A stretch of 64,000 nucleotides of DNA from Minisyncoccota bacterium (GTDB taxonomy: Bacteria; Patescibacteriota; Minisyncoccia; Phycocordibacterales; SW-6-46-9): contig JBBDRP010000002.1 of assembly GCA_040905385.1 (NCBI GenBank), positions 21,337-85,336 on the forward strand, given 5' to 3'. This document shows positions 14,771 to 45,990 of the stretch, piece by piece; position 1 is the first letter of the stretch; each line of letters begins with the position of its first letter. Position numbers and translations under genes: made by a program. The notes beneath the pieces are model-generated. The model was not told the origin of the DNA. It was given only the letters and a program-made list of their open reading frames with translations, and did not search any database.

Positions 14771-14790
14771 CTCACTCACGTTGTTCGTTG

Positions 14791-14864
14791 TGCACTCGGA
14801 AGGATTCGAACCCTCAACCTGCTGATCCGAAGTCAGCTGCTCTATCCAGTTGAGCTACGAGTGC
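14791..14864 (-). tRNA. tRNA-Arg (anticodon TCG)
   Basis: GCACTCGTAGCTCAACTGGATAGAGCAGCTGACTTCGGATCAGCAGGTTGAGGGTTCGAATCCTTCCGAGTGCA. Confidence 0.75.
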
Positions 14865-14921
14865 ATGATATACTTCTGTCACAGATCGAACGTGACTAAC
14901 CCCATACATACTAGCAAATTT

Positions 14922-31169: not shown

Positions 31170-31988
31170 GTGAACTCGTCCTATCTACCATCAAAAAAGG
31201 TCTGGATTCTTCTCAGCGTTATTTTGGTAATTACCGTTGGTTTTTTCGTACTTCGTGGTGATGAAAATAATCCATCTATTGTTTCTCAAATAAACGCACG
31301 TATTAGTGGAAATGATATTGAAGGTTCCGGCTTTCTTGGCTTTGGTAGTGACTCTCGTGATACTGAGCGAGCAGAATTTTCCAGCAATAAAACTACCGAG
31401 GCCTGGCAGGATCTCTTTCCGTATATGGCGTCTTACGTATCAGTAAGTGGTGATAAGGAAATCGCCGAAGGTGAGCTAGACCGACTCACCGAAGAGGTGG
31501 CACAAAAAATTCAGGATGAGGAGGTTGAGCTCTACACTGAGTCTGATGTACAGATTATCTCTAACGCTAGCTTTGACGATCTTGATACTTATTTTGAGGA
31601 TATGGTTACGTTCACGGCTGAGTACTACACCAATACCAGCATGGAAGACGAGCTTTTAATATTTGCCCAGGCCTCAGCTGACAATGAAGCTACAGAGGAT
31701 GAACTCAAGGAGCTTAGAGTAATTGCTGATCAATACAAGGCACTGGCCAGTGAGCTGATCCAGCTACCTGTACCGGCTTCTCTGGCCTTGATTCATCTCG
31801 AGATGGTCAACAACTACGTTGGCCTCGGAAATGCTACACGTAATATGTCAACACTACAGACCGATCCCGTTCGCTCGATGGTGGGGCTCGAGAATTACCA
31901 GCAGCTGGCCAATGAGCAAATAATCATCAGTGAAGAGCTCGGTAGGCAGATTGGTCGCCAGGCGCGATTATTAGCCGAATCAGAATAA
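31170..31988 (+). CDS. hypothetical membrane-anchored protein (first gene of T4SS-like operon)
   Basis: N-terminal TM helix (VWILLSVILVITVGFFVL) and an acidic ectodomain. Confidence 0.5.
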   Translation: MNSSYLPSKKVWILLSVILVITVGFFVLRGDENNPSIVSQINARISGNDIEGSGFLGFGSDSRDTERAEFSSNKTTEAWQDLFPYMASYVSVSGDKEIAEGELDRLTEEVAQKIQDEEVELYTESDVQIISNASFDDLDTYFEDMVTFTAEYYTNTSMEDELLIFAQASADNEATEDELKELRVIADQYKALASELIQLPVPASLALIHLEMVNNYVGLGNATRNMSTLQTDPVRSMVGLENYQQLANEQIIISEELGRQIGRQARLLAESE

Positions 31989-31994
31989 TATATT

Positions 31995-34900
31995 ATGCAA
32001 TTTTCAATACTTCAAAAAATCGTTTCAGTCACTATGACAGTAATGTTTATTCTGACCTCTGCCGGATTCGGTATGATGACACCGCGCCAGGCCCAGGCGC
32101 AGGGCATTGTTGATTTTGTAGTTCGCGGTGGGCAAGTACTGGACGGATGTGAGGGTATCACCGGGTCACGCTATCAGGCGATCGCTTCACAGCTGGGTAT
32201 TGATTTAGAAGGTGGAGTCCGAGCTGGTCTTTCTGACCTTGGAAGTAGATTACAAGATCCTGCAAGTGATCTGGGAGGTAGTATTCTTGACGGCCTTTCA
32301 AGTATTGGTGGACAGCTGTCTGACTCTGCTATTGGAGATGCTATTGGATCGCTTGGAAGTACTCTAGGAGATGCTTTTGGCAGTGCGGGAAGCGGAATTG
32401 GAAACGCGATTGGTAGTGTGGCCGGAATACTAGGAGGGCCTGTTGGAGGAATCTTGGGGAGTGTCGTAGGTGGTCTCTTTGGTGGGGGTGGTCCAGATAA
32501 AGTCGTAGAGGAGGGTTTGCGTAAAATTATTCAGCAAGGGCAGCGAATCACTCAGTTTAATCAGTCAAAAATTATTGAAAAGGAGCGTTGTCTTGACTCC
32601 TTGGCTCGCGAGGCTGGTCAGGCCGCTCTGCGTGACTTTACCAACGCCTCAGTCGACTGGCTTAATACAGGGTTCGAACGTGGTGGAGAAACGGGAAATC
32701 AGGCCTTTGTTCAGGATCTAAGCCTCTTTGTTGCTGAGGTGTCCGACAACGAGCTAAGGGAATTTACTGAAGAAGCCGAAAATGAAGGAGGTGGGTTTGC
32801 AAATACGTGCGGCTCCTTTGGACAGTCAGTATTCAGTACCGTAATCAATAATTACTTCCAGGGTACTCCAGAAAGCGGGGTTGATCCAGGTACCGTCAGA
32901 AGTACCATTGTTGCCGATGGTAACTGTCTGGCCTCCGATGCGTTCCTCCGCGGTGATTTCTCTGAAGGTGGCTGGAGTGCACTAGCCCAAAGTGTTTCCA
33001 ATAGCGGGTCCAACCCAATTGGTGCGTATCTTGAACAAAGTAATTCTTTGGATGAACGTATTCGAGAACGTGAGGAGAATGAGCGCGAAGAGCTGCAGTG
33101 GGGACAGGGATTTCTGGCTAATGAAAGTGGTGGATTTACCCCGGCCAGTGTTGTAAACGGTATCAGTAACAGACTTTTCGAAAGTGATTTTAACCGACTC
33201 GAACTCATTGATGAAATGAATGAGGTAGCTGGAAGCTTTGCTAGCTCACTGATCGGAAAGGTAACTGGGTTATCTGATGGAGGCGGTAATGATCCAGAAA
33301 GCGGAACTGGTTTATCGACGCTTGATGGAAGCAATACCGTTGGAGGAGACCAGGCAAGTCCATTTGGCTACCTGGCTGAATCATTATTAAATCGAGTTGA
33401 GGAGCAAGTCGCCATCGAAGAGGATGTCCAGCTAGCAATGGAGGATGTACTACCGTTATATCTGGATGATCGCATTGATCCACTAATAAGTGACGTGCGT
33501 AGTTGTCTAGAAACAGCCGACTTCACCAGTCAGAACATTACTGAGGTACTAAGCAGTGTAATCAATAACAAAGAGCGCTTTGAGAATAATGTACTCCGGA
33601 CACGAGTTCGGATCGACTGGCGTGGCGAGGACCTCTTCTGGCAGGGTGTGATTCGTGAACAGTCACGTAAAATGATCGGCTGGAACGGTACCGATTACAA
33701 CTGGCGTGATGACGGTGTTGAAAGCTACGCGAGACAAGGATTTTCAAATTTATGTGAAACTGATGGAGACTACGGAAATGCCCAGTATGTAATCCGGCAA
33801 GAAATCATCCCCGATCCAGAGAGGACGTTCAGTGGAGCTTTCTTTAGTCTCGAACAAGATGATGCTATTCGTTGGGAGGAGGGTAATTATGAATCTGGTT
33901 TAGATAGTGAAGGAGGAGTGTTGTATTTTGGAAGCCAGTGGATAGGAAGCGGTACGTACGAGAGTCTCGTCGGAAAGAATAATCATCGAACTCCAATATT
34001 CAATGCAGATGACGGCGGTTCTTTCTTTGACTGGCAAGATCTAGTTACGGGACAAACTCCAGCAGCCGTAAATCATAGTAAACCACCACGTGTTCATACT
34101 GTATGGGAAAAGCAGATATGTAGAGATAGTGAATGGCACGCGCAAATAACTAATATGGACCTCGATTTTCCGGATACTCCGGCCGGGCAACGAGATGCCC
34201 AGAACGCCCAGTGTGATCTGATCGGTGAACTTGAGTTTTGTATTTATCCTGCCTACAGATCGCCACGGCTAATCGCTGGAGAGATGTACCAACGAAATGT
34301 TGACGGCGGGGTAGAAGCCTCACAATGTCAATCACGAAGCGACGCTGGTACCCATTACTTTGTTCGCAGCGGTGATGGTGTCTGGAGCACGCGCCAGTGT
34401 AACACTCGCCAATCTCCACAAGGATCTGCTGTGGAGTGGGAAAGTGGTTTCCCTGACTCTACCGTACAAACCGACCGACCGGCGTATGAGACTCGAGATA
34501 CTGATACACCATTAGAAGATCAGCGAGATCTTCTTGTGAGACTCAAAGAGATACAGGCAGAACTTGAGGAAATGGTCGGAAATGATGACACCTCCGACTT
34601 CCAGAAGGTACAAGCAGATTTTTATGCCTTGGAAGATCAATTCAATAACGGTAATACCGCAGATAATCTTCTCAACAATGCCCGTACTTTTGTTGAAAAC
34701 GTTCGTTTGCTCAATGAAGCCCTCCTTGAAACTGATGAGTGTGAGGGTGGCAGCGATGACCTACGACAGTTCGGGACCGGTTTCCTGAATGACAATCCAG
34801 AAAGCGGAAATGATGGAGGAGGAGCACCTGGCCCTCTATCAATTGAATCTTTTGAAGCTAACCGATTATACGAATCTAGTACGTATGTGAGAGTTAGCTG

Positions 34901-35123
34901 GGAATCAAATGCTGAAAGTTGTACTGCTTCGGCCAACCCGAGTAATGCTGTCTGGCAGGGAGAAATAGGTCCAGATGGAGAGACTGCCCTGAACATTTTT
35001 GGAGGTAGTATACTCTCACTAACTTGTGAACGAGAGGGGGAGACAGATGTAAGTAGTAGTGTTGAAGTATTTCCACTGCAAGAACGTGGACGATTAGATC
35101 CACTAGATCCTCAGCTACAGTAG
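31995..35123 (+). CDS. large (1042 aa) secreted protein with Gly/Ser-rich GxxGS repeat region
   Basis: Signal peptide, then degenerate Gly/Ser-rich repeats (e.g. GSILDGLSSIGGQLSDSAIGDAIGSLGSTLGDAFGSAGSGIGNAIGSVAGILGGPVGG) from about residue 64 to 160, then a long Cys-containing domain. Confidence 0.6.
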   Translation: MQFSILQKIVSVTMTVMFILTSAGFGMMTPRQAQAQGIVDFVVRGGQVLDGCEGITGSRYQAIASQLGIDLEGGVRAGLSDLGSRLQDPASDLGGSILDGLSSIGGQLSDSAIGDAIGSLGSTLGDAFGSAGSGIGNAIGSVAGILGGPVGGILGSVVGGLFGGGGPDKVVEEGLRKIIQQGQRITQFNQSKIIEKERCLDSLAREAGQAALRDFTNASVDWLNTGFERGGETGNQAFVQDLSLFVAEVSDNELREFTEEAENEGGGFANTCGSFGQSVFSTVINNYFQGTPESGVDPGTVRSTIVADGNCLASDAFLRGDFSEGGWSALAQSVSNSGSNPIGAYLEQSNSLDERIREREENEREELQWGQGFLANESGGFTPASVVNGISNRLFESDFNRLELIDEMNEVAGSFASSLIGKVTGLSDGGGNDPESGTGLSTLDGSNTVGGDQASPFGYLAESLLNRVEEQVAIEEDVQLAMEDVLPLYLDDRIDPLISDVRSCLETADFTSQNITEVLSSVINNKERFENNVLRTRVRIDWRGEDLFWQGVIREQSRKMIGWNGTDYNWRDDGVESYARQGFSNLCETDGDYGNAQYVIRQEIIPDPERTFSGAFFSLEQDDAIRWEEGNYESGLDSEGGVLYFGSQWIGSGTYESLVGKNNHRTPIFNADDGGSFFDWQDLVTGQTPAAVNHSKPPRVHTVWEKQICRDSEWHAQITNMDLDFPDTPAGQRDAQNAQCDLIGELEFCIYPAYRSPRLIAGEMYQRNVDGGVEASQCQSRSDAGTHYFVRSGDGVWSTRQCNTRQSPQGSAVEWESGFPDSTVQTDRPAYETRDTDTPLEDQRDLLVRLKEIQAELEEMVGNDDTSDFQKVQADFYALEDQFNNGNTADNLLNNARTFVENVRLLNEALLETDECEGGSDDLRQFGTGFLNDNPESGNDGGGAPGPLSIESFEANRLYESSTYVRVSWESNAESCTASANPSNAVWQGEIGPDGETALNIFGGSILSLTCEREGETDVSSSVEVFPLQERGRLDPLDPQLQ

Positions 35124-35233: not shown

Positions 35234-37363
35234 ATGGGATTTCTTGATATAACCGTAGGTTGGTTTTTTGCTGAGACCGCTCAGATATTTTTCAATGCGG
35301 TTGCCTGGATTGTTGCCCAGATTGGATATCTCCTGGACTATACTGTTGAAAAGATGGTGCTCGAGATGGCAGAACTGGTAAATGGCATCACAGCAATTGA
35401 CGCACTGTGGTCAACCTTTCGTGATCTGGGAAACATTGTTTTTATTGGGGTGCTCCTCTACATTGCCATTCGTACAATCTTGAATGTTGGAAATAGTTTT
35501 AATACGAAACGCATCCTGGTTCGGCTAGTTATTGTCGCCTTATTTGTTAACTTCAGCCTGTTTGCTAGCAAGGTGGTTATTGATACATCAAACGTCGTTG
35601 CACTACAGTTTTACAACAGTATTCAGGTGGAGGAATGTGGTGAATCGGCCTGTAACATATCGCACTTTTTTGCCGATGTAACCAATATCTCCTCAGTACA
35701 AAGTCCCGAAGCCCTCGAGGCGCTTGAAAACGAAGGTTCCGAAGAAGGGGCCAACTTCAAGATTTTAATTGCTCGGGTTATGGGAATCGTATTCCTGGCA
35801 GTAGTAGGGTTCGTGATGGCGGCAATGGCATTTCTTTTACTTATACGCTTTGGTTTTTTGATACTGCTTATGATCGCTTCGCCGTTGGCTTTTATTGCTT
35901 TTGTTCTGCCTGGAACTTCCGACATGGGACAGAAGTGGCTACACAACCTCTTTAACCAATCATTTTTTGCCCCGATTTTATTTGCCATGGTCTACGTTGT
36001 GGCGGTACTTGGAGCGGAGCTGGCTAATGGTCTTGGTGGCAATGGTGATCTCATGGCCGCCATCTTGGATCCTGACGGGGACAACTACGGTGTTATCCTG
36101 ACATTTGCGCTGATGACCTTCCTGATGGCTTACACGCTCGTGGTTGCCAAGCAGATGGGTGGGTGGGTGACTCAAAAAAGTATGCAAGTTGGGGTAAAGG
36201 CCCGTAACTGGACTGGTGCTAAAGTTGTTGGTGCTACCGCTGCTGGTGTACGAGCAACCGCTGGACGTGGAGGGCAGAAAGCTTCAGAATCAAGAGGGTT
36301 AAAAGATGCAGCAAGTGATGAGAATAGAAATGCAGTGACTAGATTCGGGGCGCGCGCAGCACTCAAATTATCTGACAAAGCTGCTAATAGCAGTTTTGAT
36401 ATGCGTAATACCCGAGCCGGAAAAGCAGCCGGGGTTGATGATGGCAAGCAACGCAGCAGCGGCTTCCGTCAGGTGGTAGAAGAAAAGGCAGAGAAGCGCA
36501 AAGAAGAGAAGGGAATGATCGAGAGACTGTCACCGGAAGAAAAGGCTAAAGTTGAGCGGGCAAAGATAAAACAAGAACAGGCGGACAAGAGTCTGGAAAA
36601 GGCAGAGAAAGAAATAAAAAAGCTAGAAAAGGAAGCAAAAACCAGGTATGAGGATGCAAAAGAAAACGCTCAGGCTCAGTATGATAGAGTTAAAAATACT
36701 GTCGAGGAGGCGCAGCAGCAGACAAATAATGAACTTACTGATGTCACGAATAACCTCAAACAGGTGTCGTCAGCCATCAAAAAACGTGCTGAACTCGGTG
36801 ATAAACTAGCGGCAGCTCGTAGCTCTGGAGATAGACGTCTGGAAGAACGCATAGCAGCTCGCCTTAACGCACTCACAGATGATATTGATGGCGTTTCGAA
36901 CCTTGAGGATCTAGATACAAAGCAGAACGATTTGCAAGACCGAAAAAGTGATCTCGAGAGTCGCAAAGAAACCCTGCAAAGACGCCGTAATACTGTCCAG
37001 AACGCCTACAACGACCGAAAATCGCAAGCACGGAATGTCTACACTGATGAGCGCGATGAACTTAAGACCAAACGAGAAGTCGCAAAGGAATCAACTAAAA
37101 AATTCAAAAAGAAGATGGATAATGTTATTAATGTTGGAAACAAGCGTGGTGAGGGGTTCGTAGAAACCATGCTTGAACAGCAGAGTACGCTGGACAAGAT
37201 AGCTGGCTTCGCCGGGTATAAATTTGACACTACGCAAAGTCGGGCAAATCGCGACTTTGCTCTGGAAAATATTGGTGATATCAAGAGTAAAGACGAGGAC
37301 AGTGCCGGCAGAACAGCGAAAGACCGTGCCTCTAGTAAGCTCCGTAACATATATAACACCTAA
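35234..37363 (+). CDS. VirB6/TrbL-like polytopic membrane protein with long charged coiled-coil C-terminal extension
   Basis: Five or more TM helices over the first ~330 aa, then a K/E/R-rich coiled coil (EKAEKEIKKLEKEAKTRYEDAKENAQAQYDRVK...). Confidence 0.5.
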   Translation: MGFLDITVGWFFAETAQIFFNAVAWIVAQIGYLLDYTVEKMVLEMAELVNGITAIDALWSTFRDLGNIVFIGVLLYIAIRTILNVGNSFNTKRILVRLVIVALFVNFSLFASKVVIDTSNVVALQFYNSIQVEECGESACNISHFFADVTNISSVQSPEALEALENEGSEEGANFKILIARVMGIVFLAVVGFVMAAMAFLLLIRFGFLILLMIASPLAFIAFVLPGTSDMGQKWLHNLFNQSFFAPILFAMVYVVAVLGAELANGLGGNGDLMAAILDPDGDNYGVILTFALMTFLMAYTLVVAKQMGGWVTQKSMQVGVKARNWTGAKVVGATAAGVRATAGRGGQKASESRGLKDAASDENRNAVTRFGARAALKLSDKAANSSFDMRNTRAGKAAGVDDGKQRSSGFRQVVEEKAEKRKEEKGMIERLSPEEKAKVERAKIKQEQADKSLEKAEKEIKKLEKEAKTRYEDAKENAQAQYDRVKNTVEEAQQQTNNELTDVTNNLKQVSSAIKKRAELGDKLAAARSSGDRRLEERIAARLNALTDDIDGVSNLEDLDTKQNDLQDRKSDLESRKETLQRRRNTVQNAYNDRKSQARNVYTDERDELKTKREVAKESTKKFKKKMDNVINVGNKRGEGFVETMLEQQSTLDKIAGFAGYKFDTTQSRANRDFALENIGDIKSKDEDSAGRTAKDRASSKLRNIYNT

Positions 37364-37365
37364 TC

Positions 37366-37782
37366 ATGCAACAAGAAGAAGTTCTACAAAAAGCTAAAAA
37401 GAATCTTCCGGATGAGTACGTCCAAGCTGTTATTGATCTGGAACTACCAAAAAGAATTGATAAAATCAGCGAACAATATCAGTTAAGTGATATTGAGACT
37501 GATATTCTTGATCAAGAAGTAGTGTATCTACTACTCGGAATTACTGACTCACCAACCTTTACCGACCGGTTCGGAGATATTTCTGAACTTGAAAATAACG
37601 TGCTTTTAAAAGTAATCAAATCAGTCACACGAGATATCATCATTCCACTTCAAGAAAAGTTTCAGGGTGACAATGAGGAAAACTCTACCACTAGCATGCC
37701 CGTGCCGCCGCCACCACCAGCCCCGTCAGCCGGCTACGGGGGGACAAGTGATCCGTATCGCGAACCGACCGATGATCGGTAA
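37366..37782 (+). CDS. hypothetical cytoplasmic protein with Pro-rich C-terminus
   Basis: Translationally coupled (2-nt gap); ends PVPPPPPAPSAGYGG. Confidence 0.45.
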   Translation: MQQEEVLQKAKKNLPDEYVQAVIDLELPKRIDKISEQYQLSDIETDILDQEVVYLLLGITDSPTFTDRFGDISELENNVLLKVIKSVTRDIIIPLQEKFQGDNEENSTTSMPVPPPPPAPSAGYGGTSDPYREPTDDR

Positions 37783-37829: not shown

Positions 37830-38306
37830 ATGCAATTCCACGTTCCACAATTTATTGATGTTGAGGATAAAATCTTTGGGCCACTGTCCTTTAGGCAGTT
37901 TGTGTACCTCATCGGTGGTGCCGGTTTCTGCGTTATTCTGTATGCTCTAATTCCGTACCGGGTTATTTCACTACCATTTATTGCAATAGTCGCTAGTTTC
38001 TCACTTGCATTATCTTTTTATGAGGTTAATGGCAAACCATTTATCTATACCGTCCAGGCCGCCTTTTCGTACATAACTAATTCACACCTCTACCTCTGGC
38101 AGCGAACAGAGCACAAGGATAAATCAAAAAAACAAATCGAGAAGGAGGCAGAAGAAATTCAGCGGGTAGTGGTCAATATGTCTTCGGATCAATCAACTGG
38201 CAGCAGGCTGGCAGACAAGGCCTTCTCGGTTGATGTCGGTGAAGATAACCAGGCAAGTGAGGAGAAAGAGCCAAAACACACGTCACCTAACCGTAGTCCA
38301 AGCTAA
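37830..38306 (+). CDS. VirB3/PrgI-like small membrane protein
   Basis: EDKIFGPLSFRQFVYLIGG followed by two TM helices. Lies immediately upstream of VirB4, the typical arrangement in Gram-positive-type T4SS. Confidence 0.45.
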   Translation: MQFHVPQFIDVEDKIFGPLSFRQFVYLIGGAGFCVILYALIPYRVISLPFIAIVASFSLALSFYEVNGKPFIYTVQAAFSYITNSHLYLWQRTEHKDKSKKQIEKEAEEIQRVVVNMSSDQSTGSRLADKAFSVDVGEDNQASEEKEPKHTSPNRSPS

Positions 38307-38308
38307 TT

Positions 38309-38971
38309 ATGGCAACCGGCAAGAAAAACTCACAGGCCTCTCAGAAATTTGTACCCATCAACGAAATTCGCGACGGTGTAGCCATTCTTGATGACGGCTC
38401 ACTACGAGCAATCCTGATGGCTTCATCGATTAACTTTGCCCTCAAATCACAGGAGGAGCAGCAAGCAGTGCTGATGCAGTTTCAAAACTTTCTCAATTCA
38501 CTTGATTTCAGCGTCCAGTTTCATATTGAGTCACGAAATCTTAACATAAAACCATACCTAGAAAGTCTTAAGAAGGAGTATCAGAAGCAGGATAACGAAC
38601 TAATGAAAACACAGATCAGTGAGTACATAGAGTTTGTGCGCACCTTTACCGAGAATACAAATGTGATGCAGAAAACTTTTTTTGTGGTAATCCCGTACAA
38701 TCGATCTGTCATTTCCAGCTCAGGTGGCATCATGGAATCAATTCAAGGTATGCTAGGGGGAAGAAGTAAAGAAGATAAAGCAACCGCCAAGGAAGAGTCA
38801 TTTCAAGAAGCACACAATCAGTTACGACAGCGAATACAGATCGTCCGTCAAGGACTAGTTCGGACCGGAGTACGCGTTACTCAACTCGGAACCGAGGAGA
38901 ATATTGAGCTCTTCTATCGACTCTTTAATCCCGGTAATCTCGAGCAGAAGATTACCGATAGTAATATATAA
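38309..38971 (+). CDS. VirB4/TrbE-like N-terminal domain fragment (ends at in-frame TAA)
   Basis: FVPINEIRDGVAILDDGSLRAILMASSINFALKSQEEQ follows the VirB4 N-terminal pattern. It is in the same frame as the next ORF. Confidence 0.55.
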   Translation: MATGKKNSQASQKFVPINEIRDGVAILDDGSLRAILMASSINFALKSQEEQQAVLMQFQNFLNSLDFSVQFHIESRNLNIKPYLESLKKEYQKQDNELMKTQISEYIEFVRTFTENTNVMQKTFFVVIPYNRSVISSSGGIMESIQGMLGGRSKEDKATAKEESFQEAHNQLRQRIQIVRQGLVRTGVRVTQLGTEENIELFYRLFNPGNLEQKITDSNI

Positions 38972-38977
38972 TTATTT

Positions 38978-40819
38978 ATGGCGTTATTTGATATTTTTAA
39001 AACTGATAAAAGCAATGAGGATTCACAAATGTCTAATGAGACTGAGCGTGGTGCATTTTTGCCGCATCAGGTTGAGGATACAGGATCGCTTGATCTCAAG
39101 GACGTGATTGCCCCAGCTGCCTTAAAGATAAGTCCACGGCAACTCAACCTTGGTGAAAAGATATCACGGACCTTTTTTGTAATCTCCTACCCAAGCACGC
39201 TTCCTGATAACTGGTTTTCACCAGTGATTAATCTGGATCGACTTTTTGATATATCAATATTTGTTCACCCGGTTGATACCCGTAAAATCCTGCGTCAGTT
39301 TGAGAAACGCGTTGCCGAAGTACAGAGCCAGATCAATATCCGTGAGGAAAAGGGGCTTGTTCGTGATCCAAAGCTTGATAGTGCCCACCAGAACCTTGAG
39401 CAGCTGCGTAACGACCTCCAGCAGGCCAAGGAGAAGATCTTTGATGTCGGGCTGTACATTACCATCTACGGCAAGGATGAGAACGAACTACAGAAGACTG
39501 AGTCCGAGATTCGCTCTGTACTCGAGTCACAGTTGATTTACCTAAAACCAGCCCTGTTCCAGCAGGAGGAAGGATTTCGCTCGACGCTTCCAATCAGCAA
39601 GGACGAGCTGCAGGTTCACTCTAAACTTAACTCATCACCACTCTCAAGCCTCTTTCCATTCGTGTCTTTTGACCTAACTTCTGATACGGGAATTTTGTTT
39701 GGAATTAATCGTCACAACTCCGGACTCGTACTGTTTGATCGCTTTCAGATGGAGAACTACAACTCATTGATATTTGCTACCTCTGGTGCTGGTAAATCCT
39801 ACGCCACGAAGCTGGAAATTCTTCGTAGCTTGATGTTTGATACCAATGTGATCGTTATTGACCCCGAGGACGAGTACCGTTACCTGGCTGAGGCAACCGG
39901 CGGGCGTCACTTTAATATCTCTCTGACCTCCAAACATCACATCAACCCATTTGATCTGCCGAAACCTCGACCAGACGAAAACTTTGGTGACGTGCTACGC
40001 AGTAATATTATCTCGCTGGTTGGATTGTTTCGCTTGATGTTTGATGGCCTTAGCCCAGGTGAGGACTCAATTGTTGATAAAGCTATTGCCGAGACCTATT
40101 CACTAAAGGATATTACATATGAAAGCGAGTGGAGTGAGGATATGCAGGTACCCCTACTTTCAGACTTCGAGATGGTGCTAGGGGGGATGGAAGGGGCAGA
40201 AACACTTGTCGAAAAGCTGCAGAAGTACACCGAGGGTACCTGGGCCGGCTTCCTCAACAAACCCACAAATATCGATATTGAACGTAAGTTCATCGTTTTC
40301 TCGGTACGTGATATGGAAGATGAGCTGAAGCCAATCGCGATGCATATTGTGATGCATCATCTCTGGAATGCTATCCGAAAGAACCTGCGTAAGCGATTGT
40401 TAGTAATTGATGAGGCCTGGTGGATGATGCAGTCTGATGATACGGCCAGCTTCCTGTTTAAGCTGGCAAAGCGAGGGCGTAAGTACTACCTTGGGTTGGC
40501 TACCATCACCCAGGATGTCGGCGACTTTATCAAGTCTCCGTACGGTATGCCGATTGTCAGTAACTCATCCATACAGCTTCTGATGAAGCAGTCACCGTCG
40601 GTTATTGACAAGATTCAGGAAACCTTCAATCTTACCGATGAAGAGAAGTACCTACTACTTGAGTCGGATGTAGGCGAGGGCATCTTCTTTGCTGGACGTA
40701 AGCACGTAGCATTAAAGGTTATTGCTTCGTATACCGAGGATCAGATCATCACCTCGGACCCATCACAACTAATGGACATAGAGCGTAATCGCCAGGAACT
40801 GGAGGATAGAGATGCCTAG
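38978..40819 (+). CDS. VirB4/TrbE-like T4SS ATPase (C-terminal 613 aa)
   Basis: Walker A (FATSGAGKSYATK) and Walker B (LLVIDEAWWMM). Together with the 220-aa piece it makes an ~836-aa VirB4. Confidence 0.75.
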   Translation: MALFDIFKTDKSNEDSQMSNETERGAFLPHQVEDTGSLDLKDVIAPAALKISPRQLNLGEKISRTFFVISYPSTLPDNWFSPVINLDRLFDISIFVHPVDTRKILRQFEKRVAEVQSQINIREEKGLVRDPKLDSAHQNLEQLRNDLQQAKEKIFDVGLYITIYGKDENELQKTESEIRSVLESQLIYLKPALFQQEEGFRSTLPISKDELQVHSKLNSSPLSSLFPFVSFDLTSDTGILFGINRHNSGLVLFDRFQMENYNSLIFATSGAGKSYATKLEILRSLMFDTNVIVIDPEDEYRYLAEATGGRHFNISLTSKHHINPFDLPKPRPDENFGDVLRSNIISLVGLFRLMFDGLSPGEDSIVDKAIAETYSLKDITYESEWSEDMQVPLLSDFEMVLGGMEGAETLVEKLQKYTEGTWAGFLNKPTNIDIERKFIVFSVRDMEDELKPIAMHIVMHHLWNAIRKNLRKRLLVIDEAWWMMQSDDTASFLFKLAKRGRKYYLGLATITQDVGDFIKSPYGMPIVSNSSIQLLMKQSPSVIDKIQETFNLTDEEKYLLLESDVGEGIFFAGRKHVALKVIASYTEDQIITSDPSQLMDIERNRQELEDRDA

Positions 40820-40849: not shown

Positions 40850-41314
40850 ATGGATACAGCCAAGTTAAAATCAGCAGTAAAGACAGGGTTGGGCTGGTGG
40901 GCCAAGACCGAAGGCTACCGTGGACACCTGTTTGTTGCCCTTGTTTTCGACCTGCTTTCGATGATTCCGTGGGTGGGAATGATCTTTTCCTTTTTAGGAT
41001 ACGCAATTCTTTGGCTTTGGTTTGAGATGGGCGGAATTAATCCCAGCCTTTTTTCAGGACGAAAGAAGGCGAAGAAAGCGGCTTCTTTTATAAGTGAGTG
41101 GCTATTTGGACTTATTGGTCTGGGAATATTTCCCGGAATCATGATGTGGACCTACTTTGCTGTCAGTGAACACAAGGAAGAACAGGTAGAAAAACAGGAG
41201 GCTACTATGAAGCAGGTCCAGGAAAAGCTTGTTAAGCAATCACAGGAAAGCAACCGACGTATCCAGGAAGTAAATACACATAAACGTCGGGCAAAGACCT
41301 CAGCCTATCAGTAG
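40850..41314 (+). CDS. hypothetical membrane protein
   Basis: Three or four hydrophobic helices and a charged C-terminus. Confidence 0.45.
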   Translation: MDTAKLKSAVKTGLGWWAKTEGYRGHLFVALVFDLLSMIPWVGMIFSFLGYAILWLWFEMGGINPSLFSGRKKAKKAASFISEWLFGLIGLGIFPGIMMWTYFAVSEHKEEQVEKQEATMKQVQEKLVKQSQESNRRIQEVNTHKRRAKTSAYQ

Positions 41315-41317
41315 ATT

Positions 41318-42322
41318 ATGAAAATATTTTTCAATACATTAGTATTCGTTACTATATTTGGACTAGTATTAATTCTAGCTCCAGTGGTAGTTACCGGTCA
41401 ATCAATATTTAGCCCCTCTACTGACACAATCGGCCTTTCCCAGTCACCACGCTTTCCGGAACCAAATGAAACCATTACACTATCAGTGGTCAGTCGAGTT
41501 ATCAATCTAAATAATAAGCAGACGGTGTGGCAGATAGATGGTGAAACAGTTTCGTCTGGAACCGGGGTGCTAGAAATCGATGTCGAGCTTGGTGGTAGCG
41601 GGGAAACAACCCAGGTTGATTTTCGCGTAATTGTTGAAGGTGAGGTCGTGCAGCGTACTGCCAACCTTTCACCAGTTGATGTTAATCTTGTCTGGGAGGC
41701 AATTGAGTCTTATACGCCACCATTTTATGGAGGAAAAGCCCTTAATCCAGGCTGGGGAAAGATTCGTATTACCGCTCTTCCACATGTATACCGAGAGGAT
41801 GGTCAATTGTACGATGCTCAGAATCTTATCTACAAATGGGAGTATAATGGACTTGTGCATGGAGATGATTCCGGTCGCGGTAAGGATTCGTTTTTAATAA
41901 ACACCGTACCACGTCGGGGTAATAGGGTAACAGTAGAGATTGAAACCCTGGATGGAAATATGGTAGCCCGAAGATCTGTCGGATTACCAATAAGCGAACC
42001 GGAGATTGTGCTATATCCGTATAATATCCTGTTTGGGCCGCAAGGAAATCTGGCCTTAGACAACACTCAGGAGCTCAATACTGATGAAGAGATTGAGCTA
42101 ATTGCGTATCCATACTTTTACCTTACAGATAGTGATGTTGCTGACTTTATCGAGTATCATTGGCGGATGAATGGGGAATCATTAACACCACCAGAGGATA
42201 AAAATATCATCCGACTCCGTCGTCAGAGCGGAGTCAGTGGCGAAGCACGTATTGATGTCAGAGTCCAAGATACATCATCCATCTTCTCCACTAAATCAGC
42301 CGGGGTTAATCTTCAATTTTAA
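41318..42322 (+). CDS. hypothetical secreted protein
   Basis: Signal peptide (FFNTLVFVTIFGLVLILAPVVVTG); coupled to flanking genes. Confidence 0.5.
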   Translation: MKIFFNTLVFVTIFGLVLILAPVVVTGQSIFSPSTDTIGLSQSPRFPEPNETITLSVVSRVINLNNKQTVWQIDGETVSSGTGVLEIDVELGGSGETTQVDFRVIVEGEVVQRTANLSPVDVNLVWEAIESYTPPFYGGKALNPGWGKIRITALPHVYREDGQLYDAQNLIYKWEYNGLVHGDDSGRGKDSFLINTVPRRGNRVTVEIETLDGNMVARRSVGLPISEPEIVLYPYNILFGPQGNLALDNTQELNTDEEIELIAYPYFYLTDSDVADFIEYHWRMNGESLTPPEDKNIIRLRRQSGVSGEARIDVRVQDTSSIFSTKSAGVNLQF

Positions 42323-42324
42323 TC

Positions 42325-43287
42325 ATGAAACCTCTTTCACAACTTTTTACCATCATACTCACTACTACTTTAGTATTTTTTCTAATTCTGCCAATGATTG
42401 CTGGTATCGGAACATCCAGCGCAGACATTGAAATACTTCCAGTAGCTGAAGCCCAAGAAGATACTGACTACAAATTCCTTGCCCCGATTGGAGGCTTTGG
42501 GGAAAGCGTCGATGTTACCAGCACATCCAGCTTTACCAACTACATTCAAAATGGGATAACTATCATGATTGGATTTGCCATCATGGCCGCAATTGTACTG
42601 ATTATCGCCGCCGGTTTCCGTTACATGACCAGCGTCTCGCAAAGTGGAGTTAGTCAGGCAAAGAAGACGATGAGTAACGCCATTCTTGGGCTGATTCTAG
42701 CCCTAACCGCCGTACTGATACTCCAGACTATTAACCCTGACCTGGTTGAGCTTAACGCCGTTAAGACCGTCACCACGAGTGGAAGTAGTTTTGATGATCA
42801 CTTACAAACTGGCGGCTTTGAAAGCAGTAATGTAGTTAGTGAATCCATCATCGATGGTCCTGAGGACAGGAGAGGTAATCAGCACTGCTACCGTGTTGAT
42901 GGTGAGTGGGCTGATTGGACGCATGATCGATTCTACTGTTACCACACCGAAGAAAATTGTGAGGATGGTTACAGTGAAGCTCAACAAAGCTATCCTGGAT
43001 CAATAGATCATGGGTGTACTTATTATTATGGATCTGAAGGTACGTTATTTTCTACTGAGTATGGACAATTTAATGAGTTAGAGAGTGGTATAAATGGTGT
43101 ATCTACAGAAAGTGGATTTGCTGCAGTTGAAGATTGTGAGCAGGAAGTAGAGAATATAGCCGTTGGTAAAGATGCAGCAACGCAAGAATATAATTATGAA
43201 CAATGTGTGACATTTTCTGGTGGAATTGAAAGATTCGATACTGATAATTGTTCTATTGTATGTACTGAAGAGGTTGATGAAATATAA
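42325..43287 (+). CDS. VirB2/TrbC pilin-like protein with C-terminal Cys-rich (9 Cys) extension
   Basis: Signal peptide plus two hydrophobic helices separated by a short polar loop (ITIMIGFAIMAAIVLIIAAGFRYM...ILGLILALTAVLILQTI), then a ~150-aa Cys-rich tail. Confidence 0.4.
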   Translation: MKPLSQLFTIILTTTLVFFLILPMIAGIGTSSADIEILPVAEAQEDTDYKFLAPIGGFGESVDVTSTSSFTNYIQNGITIMIGFAIMAAIVLIIAAGFRYMTSVSQSGVSQAKKTMSNAILGLILALTAVLILQTINPDLVELNAVKTVTTSGSSFDDHLQTGGFESSNVVSESIIDGPEDRRGNQHCYRVDGEWADWTHDRFYCYHTEENCEDGYSEAQQSYPGSIDHGCTYYYGSEGTLFSTEYGQFNELESGINGVSTESGFAAVEDCEQEVENIAVGKDAATQEYNYEQCVTFSGGIERFDTDNCSIVCTEEVDEI

Positions 43288-43330: not shown

Positions 43331-44569
43331 ATGAAAACCTGGCAGAAAATTACAATTATTCTTCTTATCCTGGCACTAATCGGTATTTTAGTGTTCCTAT
43401 ACTTTTACGGAGCATCAACCACCAACCCAGACGACCCAGACGGCGTTCAGAACCCCGTATTTCCATTTGAACCACCAGTAGGTGATGATGGTGATGATTT
43501 CTTTTCCGGAGACAGTGGTGACCCATCAGATGATGATGAAGAAAATGATCCAGAAGAGAAAGACCGGCTTTGGCGAGTAAGCGACCGTCCAGTAGCTGGT
43601 AGTGGGTGGGTGACACGAGAAGATGGTTCCCAAGCTATCTGGTACGTACTCAAAGAGAATGGTCACGTCTACGAGCATGATATCGAGAATCGTGCGTCTA
43701 CTCGGCTAACGAATACCACTATTCCGCGTGTACAAGAGGCTATTATTAGCCCGAATGGGGAACATGTTATATATCGCTACATCGATATCGAGAGCCGTAA
43801 CATAAAAACCTTTCTTGCGACGACCGAAAGAACTCCTGATGGAGAGACACTGTACAGCATTGACGGTTCATTTCTTCCTGATAACCTCACCGAGGTTAAT
43901 CTCTCACCAGATGGAAATCGTATTTTCAGCTTTCAAAATACAACAGATGGTGTAATTGGTGTGCTTTACAATATCACCACTGATGAAGGAGAGGTTTTTT
44001 TTGATTCGCCACTACAGGAATGGCGTAGTGAATGGAATCATAGTGATCTGATTACGATTTTTACCAAGCCTGCCGCGGGAGTTACTGGAGTTGCCTACCA
44101 GTTAAACACTACTTCAGGTGAAAAAACGAAGATAATTGATGGATCTGCTCTCACCGCCAGCCTGCACCCAAGTAATCAGTATCTTCTGACTGGAAAACAA
44201 GAAAGTGGTAGTTACCGTAGTCGATTGTATGAAATGGATGATCTAACAAGTAATGTAATGTCACCAGCTACACTGGTTGAGAAGTGTAATTGGAGCGATG
44301 ATGAACTATTCTGTGGAATTCCAAATAATCTTCCAAATAAACCATTAAAAGACTGGTATCAAGGAAAAATAAATTTTTCTGACCAACTAGTTTCTTTTCA
44401 TCTAGCCACTCGTAATCAAGATCGCATCTTCACCGAGGAAGAGTTAAACAAAGGGCCTTTCGATATAATTAAAATTAGTCCAGCTAATAATACTGAGCAT
44501 TTAATATTTACAAACCACCGAAATAATGATCTCTGGGCAATTGATCTAGAAAATGATCAAGAAAACTAA
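43331..44569 (+). CDS. hypothetical membrane-anchored protein with D/P-rich linker and repeat (beta-propeller-like) ectodomain
   Basis: TM helix (ITIILLILALIGILVFLYFY), the D/P/E-rich linker beginning NPDDPDG, then a repetitive domain that appears beta-rich. Confidence 0.45.
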   Translation: MKTWQKITIILLILALIGILVFLYFYGASTTNPDDPDGVQNPVFPFEPPVGDDGDDFFSGDSGDPSDDDEENDPEEKDRLWRVSDRPVAGSGWVTREDGSQAIWYVLKENGHVYEHDIENRASTRLTNTTIPRVQEAIISPNGEHVIYRYIDIESRNIKTFLATTERTPDGETLYSIDGSFLPDNLTEVNLSPDGNRIFSFQNTTDGVIGVLYNITTDEGEVFFDSPLQEWRSEWNHSDLITIFTKPAAGVTGVAYQLNTTSGEKTKIIDGSALTASLHPSNQYLLTGKQESGSYRSRLYEMDDLTSNVMSPATLVEKCNWSDDELFCGIPNNLPNKPLKDWYQGKINFSDQLVSFHLATRNQDRIFTEEELNKGPFDIIKISPANNTEHLIFTNHRNNDLWAIDLENDQEN

Positions 44570-45363
44570 TCAGACTCCTTCTTTGATTCTTCCGTAGCAC
44601 TTTCTGTATTAATGACCTTGTTTACGTACACCGTCTGCAGTGCCTGAAAGAGGTTTGAGGTAGCCCAGTAGACCGCGATTACCGCCGGGAGAGAGTAGGA
44701 GATTGCAAACACAACCCCAGGAAGAATGTAGGTCAGCTTTCCACCGATTGTGTCCTTGAACTCATCTATAAATGTTTCTTGACCCTTAGCTGATTTCTCC
44801 TCAGGCTTTTCGTCGCTTTCTGGCTTCTTGTCGGAAAGTTTATTACTTATCCAGCTTTGTAGGTACTGAGAAGCACCGGCAATTGCTGCAAATATAATGC
44901 TTCTTTCTGCTAGATCTGTACCAAGAAAAGTCATGTTCACCATCTCTGGAATCTGCACAAAGCTGTAAATAATATCCATGTTCACCTCCGGTAGTCCACC
45001 GTTAAAGAATACATAATATAAGGCAATAATAATTGGAAACTGAATCAGAATGATCAGAATTCCAGCAAAGGGATTTACGTTGTGCTCGGCGTAGGCCTCC
45101 ATCATTTTCTGCGCCTGCTTCTCTTTATCATCGCCGTATTTTTCCTTAATCTCATCAATGTGCGGCTTTACCTGCTTCATGGTCTGTTGAGTTCGTACAG
45201 ACTTAATAGACAGGGGTAGTAGTATAAATTTAACCGCTAGTGTAATCAAAATAACCGCCAGACCAACACTTCCGCCGGGAATAATATCAATAAAAAACAC
45301 CAATCCGTTATAGATCGGTTCGTACAATATTGTTGAGAAAAATCCTTTAATAGCACTCCACAT
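44566..45363 (-). CDS. yidC: membrane protein insertase YidC (short form)
   Basis: 265 aa, with the conserved TM1 region LPLSIKSVRTQQTMKQVKPHIDEIKEKYGDDKEKQAQKMMEAY. Confidence 0.85.
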   Translation of the reverse strand: MWSAIKGFFSTILYEPIYNGLVFFIDIIPGGSVGLAVILITLAVKFILLPLSIKSVRTQQTMKQVKPHIDEIKEKYGDDKEKQAQKMMEAYAEHNVNPFAGILIILIQFPIIIALYYVFFNGGLPEVNMDIIYSFVQIPEMVNMTFLGTDLAERSIIFAAIAGASQYLQSWISNKLSDKKPESDEKPEEKSAKGQETFIDEFKDTIGGKLTYILPGVVFAISYSLPAVIAVYWATSNLFQALQTVYVNKVINTESATEESKKESD

Positions 45364-45470
45364 AGTAAATAATTTCTAATTAATAATTTCTAATGTCTAA
45401 TACTCAATCTCTTACGTTTCAGAAATTAGATATTAGAGATTAGACATTCTGCGCTTGCACACTTTTATTA

Positions 45471-45803
45471 CTATACACTATCGAGACGGTTAATCATCTT
45501 TTTAACACTGCTGTCGAGAAGGGAGGAGTCAGCGTCAGTGGCCTCAGCCGGAAGAAACCAGATGATCCAAAATCCGTCCGGTATATCTGAGAAGTATTTC
45601 TCAATGGTGCCATATCCACGCCGCCGAATACGATTTCTATGAGCACTATACTTTGTATCTCTTCTTGAAGTCGTACAGGAAACTCTCTTATCATCATTAT
45701 TTTTCAGCATTTTGAAGTATCCAACCGTTGATTTGACATTTTTACCGTTTTTATAAACCAAATCAAACTCTTCTTTGGTTAATCGCTGTTTTTTCTCAAG
45801 CAT
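45471..45803 (-). CDS. rnpA: ribonuclease P protein component
   Basis: 110 aa, basic. Sits next to yidC and upstream of dnaA in the classic origin neighbourhood. No rpmH was found adjacent. Confidence 0.75.
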   Translation of the reverse strand: MLEKKQRLTKEEFDLVYKNGKNVKSTVGYFKMLKNNDDKRVSCTTSRRDTKYSAHRNRIRRRGYGTIEKYFSDIPDGFWIIWFLPAEATDADSSLLDSSVKKMINRLDSV

Positions 45804-45901
45804 ATTACCTTATATAGTAACGGAAAAAACCCTAGTAATAAAGATTTTGTATTTTTATGATTTGTAATCTATTGGTTAGTAGGGCGCAGTACGAATTTTT
45901 T

Positions 45902-45960
45902 TGTGGATTAAAAAAAGTGGTGATACGATGTTATACACAGCCCTTTGAAGATGTCCACAG
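45902..45960 (+). promoter_or_regulatory. DnaA-box-like motifs upstream of dnaA
   Basis: TGTGGATTA, TTATACACA and TGTCCACAG, each 1-2 mismatches from TTATCCACA. Confidence 0.45.
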
Positions 45961-45990
45961 CTTCTGAATGTAAGTGGAAAACACGATTTT

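What the first reader, a model, noticed from the sequence alone, without database searches (positions are those of the whole stretch)
38309..40819. VirB4 ATPase interrupted by a single in-frame TAA (38969-38971) between its N-terminal domain and ATPase domain
ORFs 38309-38971 and 38978-40819 are in the same reading frame, separated only by TAA TTA TTT ATG. Translated together they give an ~836-aa protein with the normal VirB4/TrbE architecture: an N-terminal VPI..I.DG...DGS domain, then Walker A and B motifs. No Shine-Dalgarno sequence precedes the internal ATG. The options are a nonsense mutation (pseudogenisation of the core T4SS ATPase), a sequencing or assembly error, stop-codon readthrough, or a genuine two-polypeptide VirB4. 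If the stop is real, the T4SS-like system may be inactive in this strain, or it may rely on reinitiation.
Basis: seen in the sequence. Interest (0 to 1): 0.6.

Follow-up and report, generated by a model that had tools for sequence, protein, structure and literature searches.

The report
Normal two-gene VirB4 (TrsD plus ATPase)

Summary
The sequence facts are correct. ORF 38309-38971 (220 aa) and ORF 38978-40819 (613 aa) share a frame and are separated by TAA TTA TTT ATG. Together they are collinear with full-length VirB4.

The "interrupted gene" reading is wrong:
- The 220-aa protein has over 5,000 homologues. The best 120 are all stand-alone proteins of 184-231 aa.
- In all 75 species-level relatives where both genes could be read, the first gene ends in a stop. 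The ATPase gene then lies in any of the three relative frames (18/37/20), with spacers from a 4-nt ATGA overlap to 490 nt.
- The three closest relatives (75-78% identity) also have two genes, in other frames.
- The ATPase's own N-terminus (M-x-h-h-D-x-h-K-K-K) is conserved from its ATG.
- The missing Shine-Dalgarno says nothing: only 4 of 58 candidate genes in the window have one.

This pair was published in 2025 as TrsD plus VirB4, with TrsD the most abundant T4SS component of Patescibacteria. The window also shows the described context: KsgA, VirB6-like, PrgI/VirB3-like, pilin-like, then yidC-dnaA-dnaN.

Rare fused relatives exist (2 of 150 representative clusters). The split lies inside the N-terminal half of VirB4, about 270 residues before Walker A. 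Ordinary and already known.

The parts
38309..38971 (+). Gene for a stand-alone TrsD-like / 'TraC-like' protein (220 aa). It is homologous to the first ~120-215 residues of full-length VirB4.
   Evidence: NCBIfam: TrsD/TraD NF041427 E 2.5e-9; N-termini of VirB4 models CD1110 (profile 2-123), Mbov_0397 (98-233) and VirB4_CagE (5-168). There are 5198 homologues and the top 120 are all 184-231 aa. An identical protein is annotated in NCBI as a separate hypothetical protein, WD335_00310. The AF2 model's top 14 PDB fold hits are all TrwK/VirB4.
38969..38977 (+). Gene boundary: TAA stop of the TrsD-like gene (38969-38971) plus a 6-nt spacer TTATTT.
   Evidence: Spacers of 2-6 nt are typical of this operon. 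Relatives have spacers from -4 to 490 nt, median 6.
38978..40819 (+). VirB4-type T4SS ATPase gene (613 aa). It lacks the first ~170-220 residues of canonical VirB4.
   Evidence: NCBIfam conju_CD1110 gives 362.8 bits against a cutoff of 325, covering profile 176-734. Pfam P-loop_TraG E 3.4e-27. PDB 4ag5 VirB4 CTD E 2.3e-38, and TrwK 300-735. The N-terminus MALFDIFK aligns with the conserved M-x-h-h-D-x-h-K-K-K start of 75 relatives.
39776..39799 (+). Walker A motif (ATSGAGKS, ORF2 residues 267-274).
   Evidence: Translation and alignment to the fused relative P0201.
40397..40420 (+). Walker B motif (LLVIDEAW, ORF2 residues 474-481).
37830..38306 (+). PrgI / VirB3-like small membrane protein gene (158 aa). 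It ends 2 nt before the TrsD-like gene.
   Evidence: Pfam PrgI PF12666 E 8.7e-9, 36.2 bits against a cutoff of 27. The same PrgI-TrsD-like-ATPase order is seen in relatives and in Firmicutes plasmids.
35234..37363 (+). Candidate VirB6-like polytopic membrane protein gene (709 aa).
   Evidence: Weak, below-cutoff hits: Pfam TrbL/VirB6 E 8e-5 (22.9 bits, cutoff 25.9) and NCBIfam CD3337/EF1877 mobilome membrane protein E 1.5e-5. A syntenic 719-738-aa gene occurs in relatives.
37366..37782 (+). Small conserved gene of the cluster (138 aa), function unknown.
   Evidence: No family hit. A syntenic 137-152-aa gene occurs in relatives L084 and L086.
40850..42322 (+). Two conserved downstream genes of the cluster (154 aa and 334 aa), function unknown.
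   Evidence: No significant family. Syntenic 155-163-aa and 336-aa genes follow the ATPase in relatives.
42325..43287 (+). Candidate VirB2-like T4SS pilin-domain protein gene (320 aa).
   Evidence: Pfam T4SS_pilin PF18895 E 2.4e-5 (24.8 bits, cutoff 26.6) and NCBIfam Mbov_0395 pilin-like E 1.5e-5. Both are below cutoff.

Best explanation
These are two bona fide adjacent genes of the chromosomal type IV secretion system of a Patescibacteria (Paceibacteria-type) genome.

- Gene 1 (38309-38971) encodes a stand-alone TrsD-like protein. It is the homologue of the extreme N-terminal region of VirB4.
- Gene 2 (38978-40819) encodes the rest of VirB4: the second half of the N-terminal region plus the RecA-like ATPase domain.

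The stop codon is the normal end of gene 1. Its being in frame with gene 2 is coincidence.

Inferred, not shown:
- The two polypeptides assemble non-covalently into a VirB4-like unit. Together with the PrgI/VirB3-like membrane protein encoded just upstream, this anchors the ATPase hexamer at the membrane.
- Gene 2 is translated from the polycistronic mRNA by SD-independent initiation or termination-reinitiation coupling across the 6-nt spacer, like its neighbours in the operon.
For: 1. Family size and length. There are 5198 homologues of ORF1, and the best 120 are all 184-231 aa. Of 150 representative clusters at 50% identity, 113 are under 300 aa, 35 are 300-443 aa with no ATPase part, and only 2 are fused.
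2. Junction comparison in 75 species-level genomes. The stop is always present (TAA 48, TAG 14, TGA 13). The relative frame is 0/+1/+2 in 18/37/20. The spacer runs from -4 (ATGA overlap, 7 cases) to 490 nt, median 6.
3. The closest relatives (75-78% identity) have two genes with spacers of 5, 1 and 4 nt, in frames +2, +1 and +1.
4. The conserved N-terminal motif of the ATPase starts exactly at its ATG in 75 relatives.
5. The two ORFs are collinear and non-overlapping against VirB4 profiles and against a naturally fused relative. ORF1 11-214 matches P0201 8-215, and ORF2 36-601 matches P0201 226-791.
6. The ORF1 fold model hits only TrwK/VirB4 chains at the top of the PDB list.
7. SD motifs are present at 4 of 58 genes in the window and at 1 of 75 junctions in relatives.
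8. The same PrgI-TrsD-like-ATPase triad occurs on Firmicutes plasmids.
9. Literature, PMC12102498: TrsD is a remote homologue of the VirB4 N-terminus. There are 2272 homologues in Patescibacteria, 1664 of them next to virB4. It is essential in Ca. S. epibionticum ML1. The clusters lie near dnaA, dnaN and ksgA, which is the layout of this window.
Against: - No reads were available, so the base calls at 38969-38971 cannot be checked directly.
- The physical association of the two polypeptides, and the mode of translation initiation of gene 2, are inferred and not shown.
- The TrsD NCBIfam hit is far below that model's cutoff (37 vs 200 bits), so ORF1 is only a distant relative of staphylococcal TrsD.
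- The fold match to TrwK is modest (TM 0.38-0.47, model pLDDT 72).
- Rare fused relatives show that a single-chain form is also viable.
Confidence: 0.93

Rival explanations
1. A recent nonsense mutation has pseudogenised a formerly single-chain VirB4, leaving the T4SS inactive in this strain.
For: The two ORFs are in frame, separated by one stop and two codons. Fused single-chain relatives do exist (P0201 and P0234).
Against: - The stop is present in 75 of 75 relatives, in all three frames and with variable spacers.
- The closest relatives at 75-78% identity are split in other frames.
- Both ORFs are intact. ORF1 has 49 invariant positions across a 30-sequence alignment.
- The ATPase has its own conserved N-terminal motif starting at its ATG.
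Confidence: 0.02
2. A sequencing or assembly error created a spurious TAA.
For: The window comes from a metagenome-assembled genome. No reads could be inspected.
Against: An error is not needed to explain a feature shared by every relative examined, from many independent assemblies. The end of ORF1 and the start of ORF2 both align with the termini of homologues.
Confidence: 0.01
3. Programmed stop-codon readthrough, or another recoding event, yields a fused ~836-aa VirB4, possibly alongside the separate products.
For: The frames match in this genome and in 18 of 75 relatives. Fused forms are functional in principle.
Against: - The frame relation is what chance predicts (18/37/20).
- Stop identity is not conserved.
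- Spacers reach 490 nt.
- No conserved recoding context was seen.
- TAA is the stop codon generally regarded as the least leaky (established knowledge, not tested here).
Confidence: 0.03
4. ORF1 is an independently functioning protein that only shares ancestry with the VirB4 N-terminus. It does not act as a detached VirB4 domain.
For: [quoted passage not shown]
- 35 of 150 representative clusters carry long low-complexity tails, which indicates independent evolution.
- In Gracilibacteria, TrsD homologues are mostly not next to virB4.
Against: - The adjacency PrgI-TrsD-like-ATPase is tight and near-universal.
- Natural fusions join the two parts in the canonical order.
- ORF2 lacks precisely the region that ORF1 supplies.
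Confidence: 0.05

Closest known systems
TrsD + VirB4 pair of the Patescibacteria (CPR) T4SS (Quinonero-Coronel et al. 2025, Microb Genom, PMC12102498; essentiality in Ca. Southlakia epibionticum ML1 as cited there)
   Same: - A stand-alone ~220-aa TrsD-like gene lies immediately upstream of a ~600-aa virB4.
- PrgI/VirB3-like, VirB6-like and VirB2-like pilin genes are in the cluster.
- The cluster lies next to ksgA, yidC, dnaA and dnaN.
   Different: Nothing substantive. This is one more genome of the class. The in-frame spacing of the two genes is particular to this genome and has no apparent significance.
TrsD/TrsE (TraD/TraE) of staphylococcal conjugative plasmids of the pGO1 subclass of MPF-FATA (NCBIfam NF041427 TrsD/TraD)
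   Same: A small protein homologous to the VirB4 N-terminus is encoded separately from the VirB4-type ATPase. ORF1 residues 8-128 match profile positions 12-142 of 201.
   Different: The relationship is only remote: 37.3 bits against a family cutoff of 200. The pGO1 system is plasmid-borne and conjugative, whereas this one is a chromosomal system next to the origin. I could not fetch pSK41 to compare gene junctions.
Single-chain MPF-FATA VirB4 ATPases (CD1110 family NF045971; PrgJ-type) and R388 TrwK/VirB4
   Same: ORF1 + ORF2 are collinear with the whole profile (2-123 and 176-734 of 752). ORF2 scores above the CD1110 cutoff. The ORF1 model resembles the N-terminal part of TrwK.
   Different: Here the protein is made as two polypeptides. 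ORF2 alone lacks the first ~170-220 residues.
PrgI-TrsD-like-DUF87 ATPase triads on large Firmicutes plasmids (C. perfringens pJFP838A, Geobacillus subterraneus pGspE55-1)
   Same: The same three-gene order and the same split. ORF1 aligns over 92-93% of its length at 27-29% identity.
   Different: The TrsD-like proteins there are longer (312-318 aa). The elements are plasmid-borne and typed non-mobilizable. They are annotated only as hypothetical or DUF87.

Membership tests
VirB4-type T4SS ATPase (NCBIfam conju_CD1110 NF045971 / Pfam P-loop_TraG) | Score above the curated family cutoff | tested here: met
   ORF2 scores 362.8 bits against a cutoff of 325. P-loop_TraG scores 95.6 bits against a cutoff of 25.8.
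VirB4-type T4SS ATPase (NCBIfam conju_CD1110 NF045971 / Pfam P-loop_TraG) | Walker A and Walker B NTP-binding motifs | tested here: met
   ATSGAGKS (residues 267-274) and LLVIDEAW (residues 474-481).
VirB4-type T4SS ATPase (NCBIfam conju_CD1110 NF045971 / Pfam P-loop_TraG) | Single polypeptide covering the full profile, including the N-terminal ~170 residues | tested here: not met
   ORF2 covers profile 176-734 only. Positions 2-123 are matched by the separate ORF1. The full architecture is met only by the two proteins together.
VirB4-type T4SS ATPase (NCBIfam conju_CD1110 NF045971 / Pfam P-loop_TraG) | Encoded with other T4SS inner-membrane components (VirB3, VirB6) | tested here: met
   PrgI/VirB3-like scores above cutoff at 37830-38306. 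A weak VirB6-like hit lies at 35234-37363.
TrsD/TraD conjugative transfer protein (NCBIfam NF041427) | Score above the curated cutoff (200 bits) | tested here: not met
   37.3 bits, E 2.5e-9. ORF1 is a remote homologue, not a member of this narrowly defined subfamily.
TrsD-like proteins in the broad sense used for Patescibacteria (MPF-FATA TrsD profile; Pfam PF26593 'TraC-like') | Homology to the N-terminal part of VirB4 | tested here: met
   ORF1 hits the N-termini of three VirB4 models. It is 38% identical to residues 8-215 of the fused relative P0201. Its top fold hits are all TrwK/VirB4.
TrsD-like proteins in the broad sense used for Patescibacteria (MPF-FATA TrsD profile; Pfam PF26593 'TraC-like') | Stand-alone ~200-aa protein encoded directly upstream of virB4 | tested here: met
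TrsD-like proteins in the broad sense used for Patescibacteria (MPF-FATA TrsD profile; Pfam PF26593 'TraC-like') | Match to Pfam PF26593 | tested here: inconclusive
   A precomputed PF26593 hit is recorded for the identical protein P0001 and for all 120 top homologues (the name comes). My own hmmscan against the local Pfam copy returned no family for ORF1. The model may be absent from that copy.
Patescibacteria chromosomal T4SS (PMC12102498) | Cluster located near dnaA/dnaN/ksgA/rnpA | tested here: met
   KsgA-type RrnaAD at 30345-31139, YidC at 44566-45363 (-), DnaA at 45991-47367 and DnaN at 47700-48794.
Patescibacteria chromosomal T4SS (PMC12102498) | No relaxase in the cluster | tested here: inconclusive
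   No relaxase domain was found among the 30 window proteins scanned with Pfam. Not every ORF of the window was scanned.
Patescibacteria chromosomal T4SS (PMC12102498) | Required for epibiotic growth | not testable with these tools
   Reported for Ca. S. epibionticum ML1, as cited in PMC12102498. This is an experimental property.

The most novel reading that the evidence does not exclude
The split is functional rather than neutral. On this reading, the free TrsD-like subunit is a detachable adaptor whose stoichiometry or timing controls docking of the VirB4 ATPase onto PrgI/VirB3 at the membrane. In some lineages it may carry long disordered tails for extra partners. That would make it a regulatory subunit peculiar to this essential Patescibacteria/MPF-FATA machinery. 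A lesser variant: in this genome the in-frame TAA also allows a trace of fused readthrough product.
Probability: 0.2. Interest if true: 0.4.

Novelty: already known. Interest (0 to 1): 0.1.

Why it matters
For the genome scan, this removes a false alarm. The T4SS of this organism is not broken, and no recoding needs to be invoked.

More generally:
- An in-frame stop between two ORFs that jointly resemble one protein is not evidence of a pseudogene until orthologous junctions have been compared.
- A missing Shine-Dalgarno is uninformative in SD-poor lineages such as this one.

One open biological question remains. TrsD has no assigned function, although it is the most widespread component of a T4SS reported to be essential in Patescibacteria. 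That question is already recognised in the literature.

Tried and rejected
- **Local Pfam scan of ORF1:** no family. NCBIfam and the precomputed Pfam annotations were informative instead.
- **Profile search of the ORF1 alignment against PDB sequences:** only chance-level staphylocoagulase hits at E~0.25. Fold comparison was needed.
- **Fetching pSK41 (AF051917)** to compare the traD/traE junction directly: the record is not in the collection. The comparison with the staphylococcal prototype therefore rests on the NCBIfam profile and the literature.
- **Rfam and tRNA scans of the window:** nothing at or near the junction. No known recoding or regulatory RNA is present.
- **Nonsense mutation, assembly error and readthrough:** considered and rejected on the comparative junction data.
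- **SD-dependent reinitiation:** considered and set aside, because the lineage hardly uses SD motifs.
- **A second large protein search with ORF2:** not spent, because the N-terminal side had already answered the question.
Full report
**1. The observation**

- ORF1 runs from ATG 38309 to TAA 38969-38971 (220 aa).
- Six bases, TTATTT, follow.
- ORF2 runs from ATG 38978 to 40819 (613 aa).
- The two starts are 669 nt apart, which is 3 x 223, so the ORFs share a frame.
- No GGAG/GAGG/AGGA lies upstream of the second ATG.

**2. What the two ORFs are**

ORF2 is a VirB4-type ATPase of the monoderm (MPF-FATA) kind.
- NCBIfam conju_CD1110 scores 362.8 bits against a cutoff of 325, over profile positions 176-734 of 752.
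- Pfam P-loop_TraG gives E 3.4e-27.
- The Thermoanaerobacter VirB4 C-terminal domain (4ag5) matches ORF2 residues 235-593 at E 2.3e-38.
- R388 TrwK residues 300-735 match ORF2 residues 134-559.
- Walker A (ATSGAGKS) is at residues 267-274. Walker B (LLVIDEAW) is at residues 474-481.

ORF1 matches only the N-terminal ends of VirB4 models, plus one stand-alone family:
- CD1110 positions 2-123.
- Mbov_0397 positions 98-233.
- VirB4_CagE positions 5-168.
- The stand-alone 'TrsD/TraD family conjugative transfer protein' model (E 2.5e-9, far below that model's cutoff).

An AlphaFold model of ORF1 built on 30 homologues (mean pLDDT 72) was compared with the PDB. The best 14 matches are all TrwK/VirB4 chains. 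The scores are modest (E 1e-3 to 0.1, TM 0.38-0.47), but nothing else is in that range.

However, the break is not at the border with the ATPase domain. ORF2 retains about 234 residues ahead of the RecA-like domain, so the break lies inside the N-terminal half.

**3. Is the stop a lesion or a gene boundary?**

Every comparative test points to a gene boundary.

(a) *Family size and length.* ORF1 has 5198 homologues at E<=1e-3 in the 5.8-billion-protein collection. The best 120 are all 184-231 aa. The identical protein is annotated in NCBI as a separate protein of a 'Candidatus Paceibacterota bacterium' MAG, on a 784-kb contig. In an exhaustive search of 1.84 billion cluster representatives there are 2250 hits. 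The best 150 break down as follows:

| Length class | Clusters | Notes |
|---|---|---|
| under 300 aa | 113 | stand-alone |
| 300-443 aa | 35 | no ATPase-part homology in any of the 35; all five sequences I read carry low-complexity Pro/Ala/Gln/Thr-rich C-terminal tails |
| full-length fusions | 2 | 797 and 898 aa |

(b) *Junctions in relatives.* A scan of one genome per species returned 80 loci from Paceibacteria-type MAGs. Many are labelled Saccharibacteria, Parcubacteria, Taylorbacteria or Kaiserbacteria. Both genes could be read in 75 of them.
- The first gene ends in a stop codon in all 75: TAA 48, TAG 14, TGA 13.
- The ATPase gene lies in relative frame 0, +1 or +2 in 18, 37 and 20 loci.
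- The spacer ranges from a 4-nt ATGA overlap (7 loci) to 490 nt. The median is 6, and 52 loci have 15 nt or fewer.
- None is fused.

(c) *Closest relatives.* Those found at 75-78% identity have two genes, with spacers of 5, 1 and 4 nt in frames +2, +1 and +1.

(d) *The ATPase start.* The ATPase begins with a conserved motif, M-[S/G/A]-[I/L/F]-[F/L]-D-x-[F/L]-K-K-K. In these relatives it starts exactly at the first ATG. The window's MALFDIFK fits it. A conserved N-terminus is not expected of an internal segment.

(e) *Chance.* Sharing a frame is a 1-in-3 event. In this same operon 3 of 8 adjacent gene pairs are in frame, including the two junctions that follow ORF2.

**4. The missing Shine-Dalgarno**

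Only 4 of 58 candidate genes in the window have a core SD tetramer upstream. Only 1 of 75 relatives has one at this junction. The operon is tightly packed, with spacers of 2, 47, 2, 6, 30, 3, 2 and 43 nt. The absence of an SD therefore says nothing. Translation of ORF2 by SD-independent initiation or termination-reinitiation coupling is an inference, and it applies equally to its neighbours.

**5. Fused relatives**

- P0201 (797 aa) is a real continuous ORF in MAG GCA_964615945.1. Its context is the same: PrgI, then the fused gene, then yidC, rnpA, dnaA and dnaN downstream.
- ORF1 residues 11-214 align with P0201 residues 8-215 at 38% identity. ORF2 residues 36-601 align with P0201 residues 226-791 at 52% identity. 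Only about 10 linker residues lie between the two parts.
- The two window proteins are therefore jointly equivalent to one VirB4, and the single-chain state is viable.
- The fused state is rare: 2 of 150 representative clusters.
- Whether these are secondary fusions or ancestral retentions was not resolved.

**6. Context in the window**

The genes, in order:

| Coordinates | Assignment |
|---|---|
| 30345-31139 | KsgA-type rRNA dimethylase |
| 31170-35123 | two unassigned ORFs, one of 1042 aa |
| 35234-37363 | weak VirB6-like |
| 37366-37782 | 138-aa ORF |
| 37830-38306 | PrgI/VirB3-like |
| 38309-38971 | TrsD-like |
| 38978-40819 | VirB4 |
| 40850-42322 | two unassigned ORFs |
| 42325-43287 | weak T4SS-pilin-like |
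| 43331-44569 | 412-aa ORF |
| 44566-45363 (-) | yidC |
| 45991-47367 | dnaA |
| 47700-48794 | dnaN |

**7. Comparison with what is known**

Quinonero-Coronel et al. 2025 (PMC12102498) describe exactly this arrangement.
[quoted passage not shown] - It is otherwise known only from the pGO1 subclass of MPF-FATA.
- It has no assigned function.
- It is listed as essential in Ca. S. epibionticum ML1.
- The clusters sit near dnaA, dnaN, ksgA and rnpA.

The same PrgI-TrsD-like-ATPase triad also occurs on large Firmicutes plasmids, annotated only as hypothetical or DUF87 proteins. Examples are C. perfringens pJFP838A and Geobacillus pGspE55-1.

On membership:
- ORF2 is a VirB4 by every test except that it is not the whole chain.
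- ORF1 is not a member of the narrow NCBIfam TrsD/TraD subfamily (37 against 200 bits).
- ORF1 is a TrsD-like / PF26593 'TraC-like' protein in the broad sense used for Patescibacteria.

**8. Mechanism**

Shown:
- There are two conserved genes.
- They are jointly collinear with VirB4.
- They are always adjacent to each other and to PrgI.

Inferred:
- The TrsD-like protein supplies in trans the extreme N-terminal module of VirB4.
- Together with the PrgI/VirB3-like protein, it anchors the ATPase at the membrane. This draws on the statement in PMC12102498 that VirB3 interacts with VirB4 and anchors it to the inner membrane. That this contact runs through the N-terminal region of VirB4 is my own recollection of the R388 structures and was not checked here.

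No tool here could test the interaction.

**9. Verdict**

- The alarming interpretations (nonsense mutation, assembly error, readthrough, inactive T4SS) are rejected.
- Interest is low.

Noticed in passing
window 1-64000 (gene starts); junctions in L001-L080: The genome is almost devoid of Shine-Dalgarno motifs. Only 4 of 58 candidate genes have a GGAG/GAGG/AGGA core in the 20 nt upstream. Only 1 of 75 relatives has one at the trsD-virB4 junction. Many starts are instead preceded by A/T-rich TAnnAT-like strings close to the ATG, for example cggTATAATacagttacctcctATG at 40850. This hints at very short leaders or SD-independent initiation.
   Followed up: partly
window 44566-48794: The T4SS cluster abuts the presumptive replication-origin region: yidC (-), a 110-aa ORF at 45471-45803 (-) in the position where relatives have rnpA, then dnaA and dnaN. 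The stretch 46-48 kb is the most AT-rich of the window (GC 0.33). This matches the published near-origin placement of Patescibacteria T4SS.
   Followed up: partly
L003-L080 (first 10 codons of the ATPase gene); window 38978-39010: The VirB4 ATPase subunit has a strongly conserved N-terminal peptide, M-[S/G/A]-[I/L/F]-[F/L]-D-x-[F/L]-K-K-K. It is followed by a variable stretch and then an invariant (D/E)(I/V)IAPSALK box. The leading peptide is absent from the natural fusion P0201. Its role is unknown. Possibilities are an amphipathic membrane peptide or a TrsD-docking peptide.
   Followed up: no
L081 544-2937 (P0201); P0234: Rare natural fusions of the TrsD-like and ATPase parts exist. P0201 (797 aa) has a ~10-residue linker and sits in the same PrgI...yidC-rnpA-dnaA-dnaN synteny. 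P0234 (898 aa) has a ~100-residue Pro/Ala-rich linker that resembles the tails of long stand-alone TrsD-like proteins, which suggests fusion by stop-codon loss.
   Followed up: partly
P0139, P0167, P0191, P0197, P0222 (representative clusters): 35 of the 150 best representative clusters of the TrsD-like family are 300-443 aa, and none of them has ATPase-part homology. The five sequences I read all owe the extra length to 100-220-residue low-complexity Pro/Ala/Gln/Thr-rich C-terminal tails. This means the detached N-terminal module is evolving appendages of its own in some lineages.
   Followed up: partly
L082 5572-8878 (C. perfringens pJFP838A); L083 5567-8728 (Geobacillus pGspE55-1): Large Firmicutes plasmids typed 'non-mobilizable' carry the same PrgI-TrsD-like (312-318 aa)-DUF87 ATPase triad. 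A sigma-70 family factor and a TlpA-type disulfide reductase lie nearby upstream. The TrsD-like genes are annotated only as hypothetical. A few haloarchaeal plasmids also gave hits.
   Followed up: no
L015, L027, L056: In three relatives one of the two genes looks truncated. The TrsD-like ORF is only 72 codons in L015. The ATPase ORF is 292 codons in L027 and 239 codons in L056. These could be true pseudogenes, frameshift errors in the assemblies, or artefacts of my ORF tracing.
   Followed up: no
L086/L087 2131-2478: In one close relative, a gene for a 23S-rRNA-intervening-sequence protein (PF05635) is inserted between the 152-aa cluster gene and PrgI. The window has only a 47-nt spacer at that position.
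   Followed up: no
window 31995-35123: A 1042-aa ORF at the head of the T4SS cluster has no family assignment and lies in the stretch with the strongest GC skew of the window (0.22). The 272-aa ORF at 31170-31988 and the 412-aa ORF at 43331-44569 that flank the cluster are likewise unassigned.
   Followed up: no
window 56284-57981 (-) and 26646-27713 (-): A PilB-type T2SSE ATPase (E 1.4e-114) is encoded about 15 kb downstream of the T4SS. This indicates a type IV pilus or competence machinery. A LysM + peptidase M23 cell-wall hydrolase is encoded about 4 kb upstream of the cluster.
   Followed up: no
window 14790-14864 (-): tRNA-Arg(TCG) on the minus strand overlaps the mechanically called TTG starts and ends of the plus-strand ORFs 14437-14853 and 14850-16427 (CCA-adding enzyme). 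The true start of the latter is probably further downstream.
   Followed up: no
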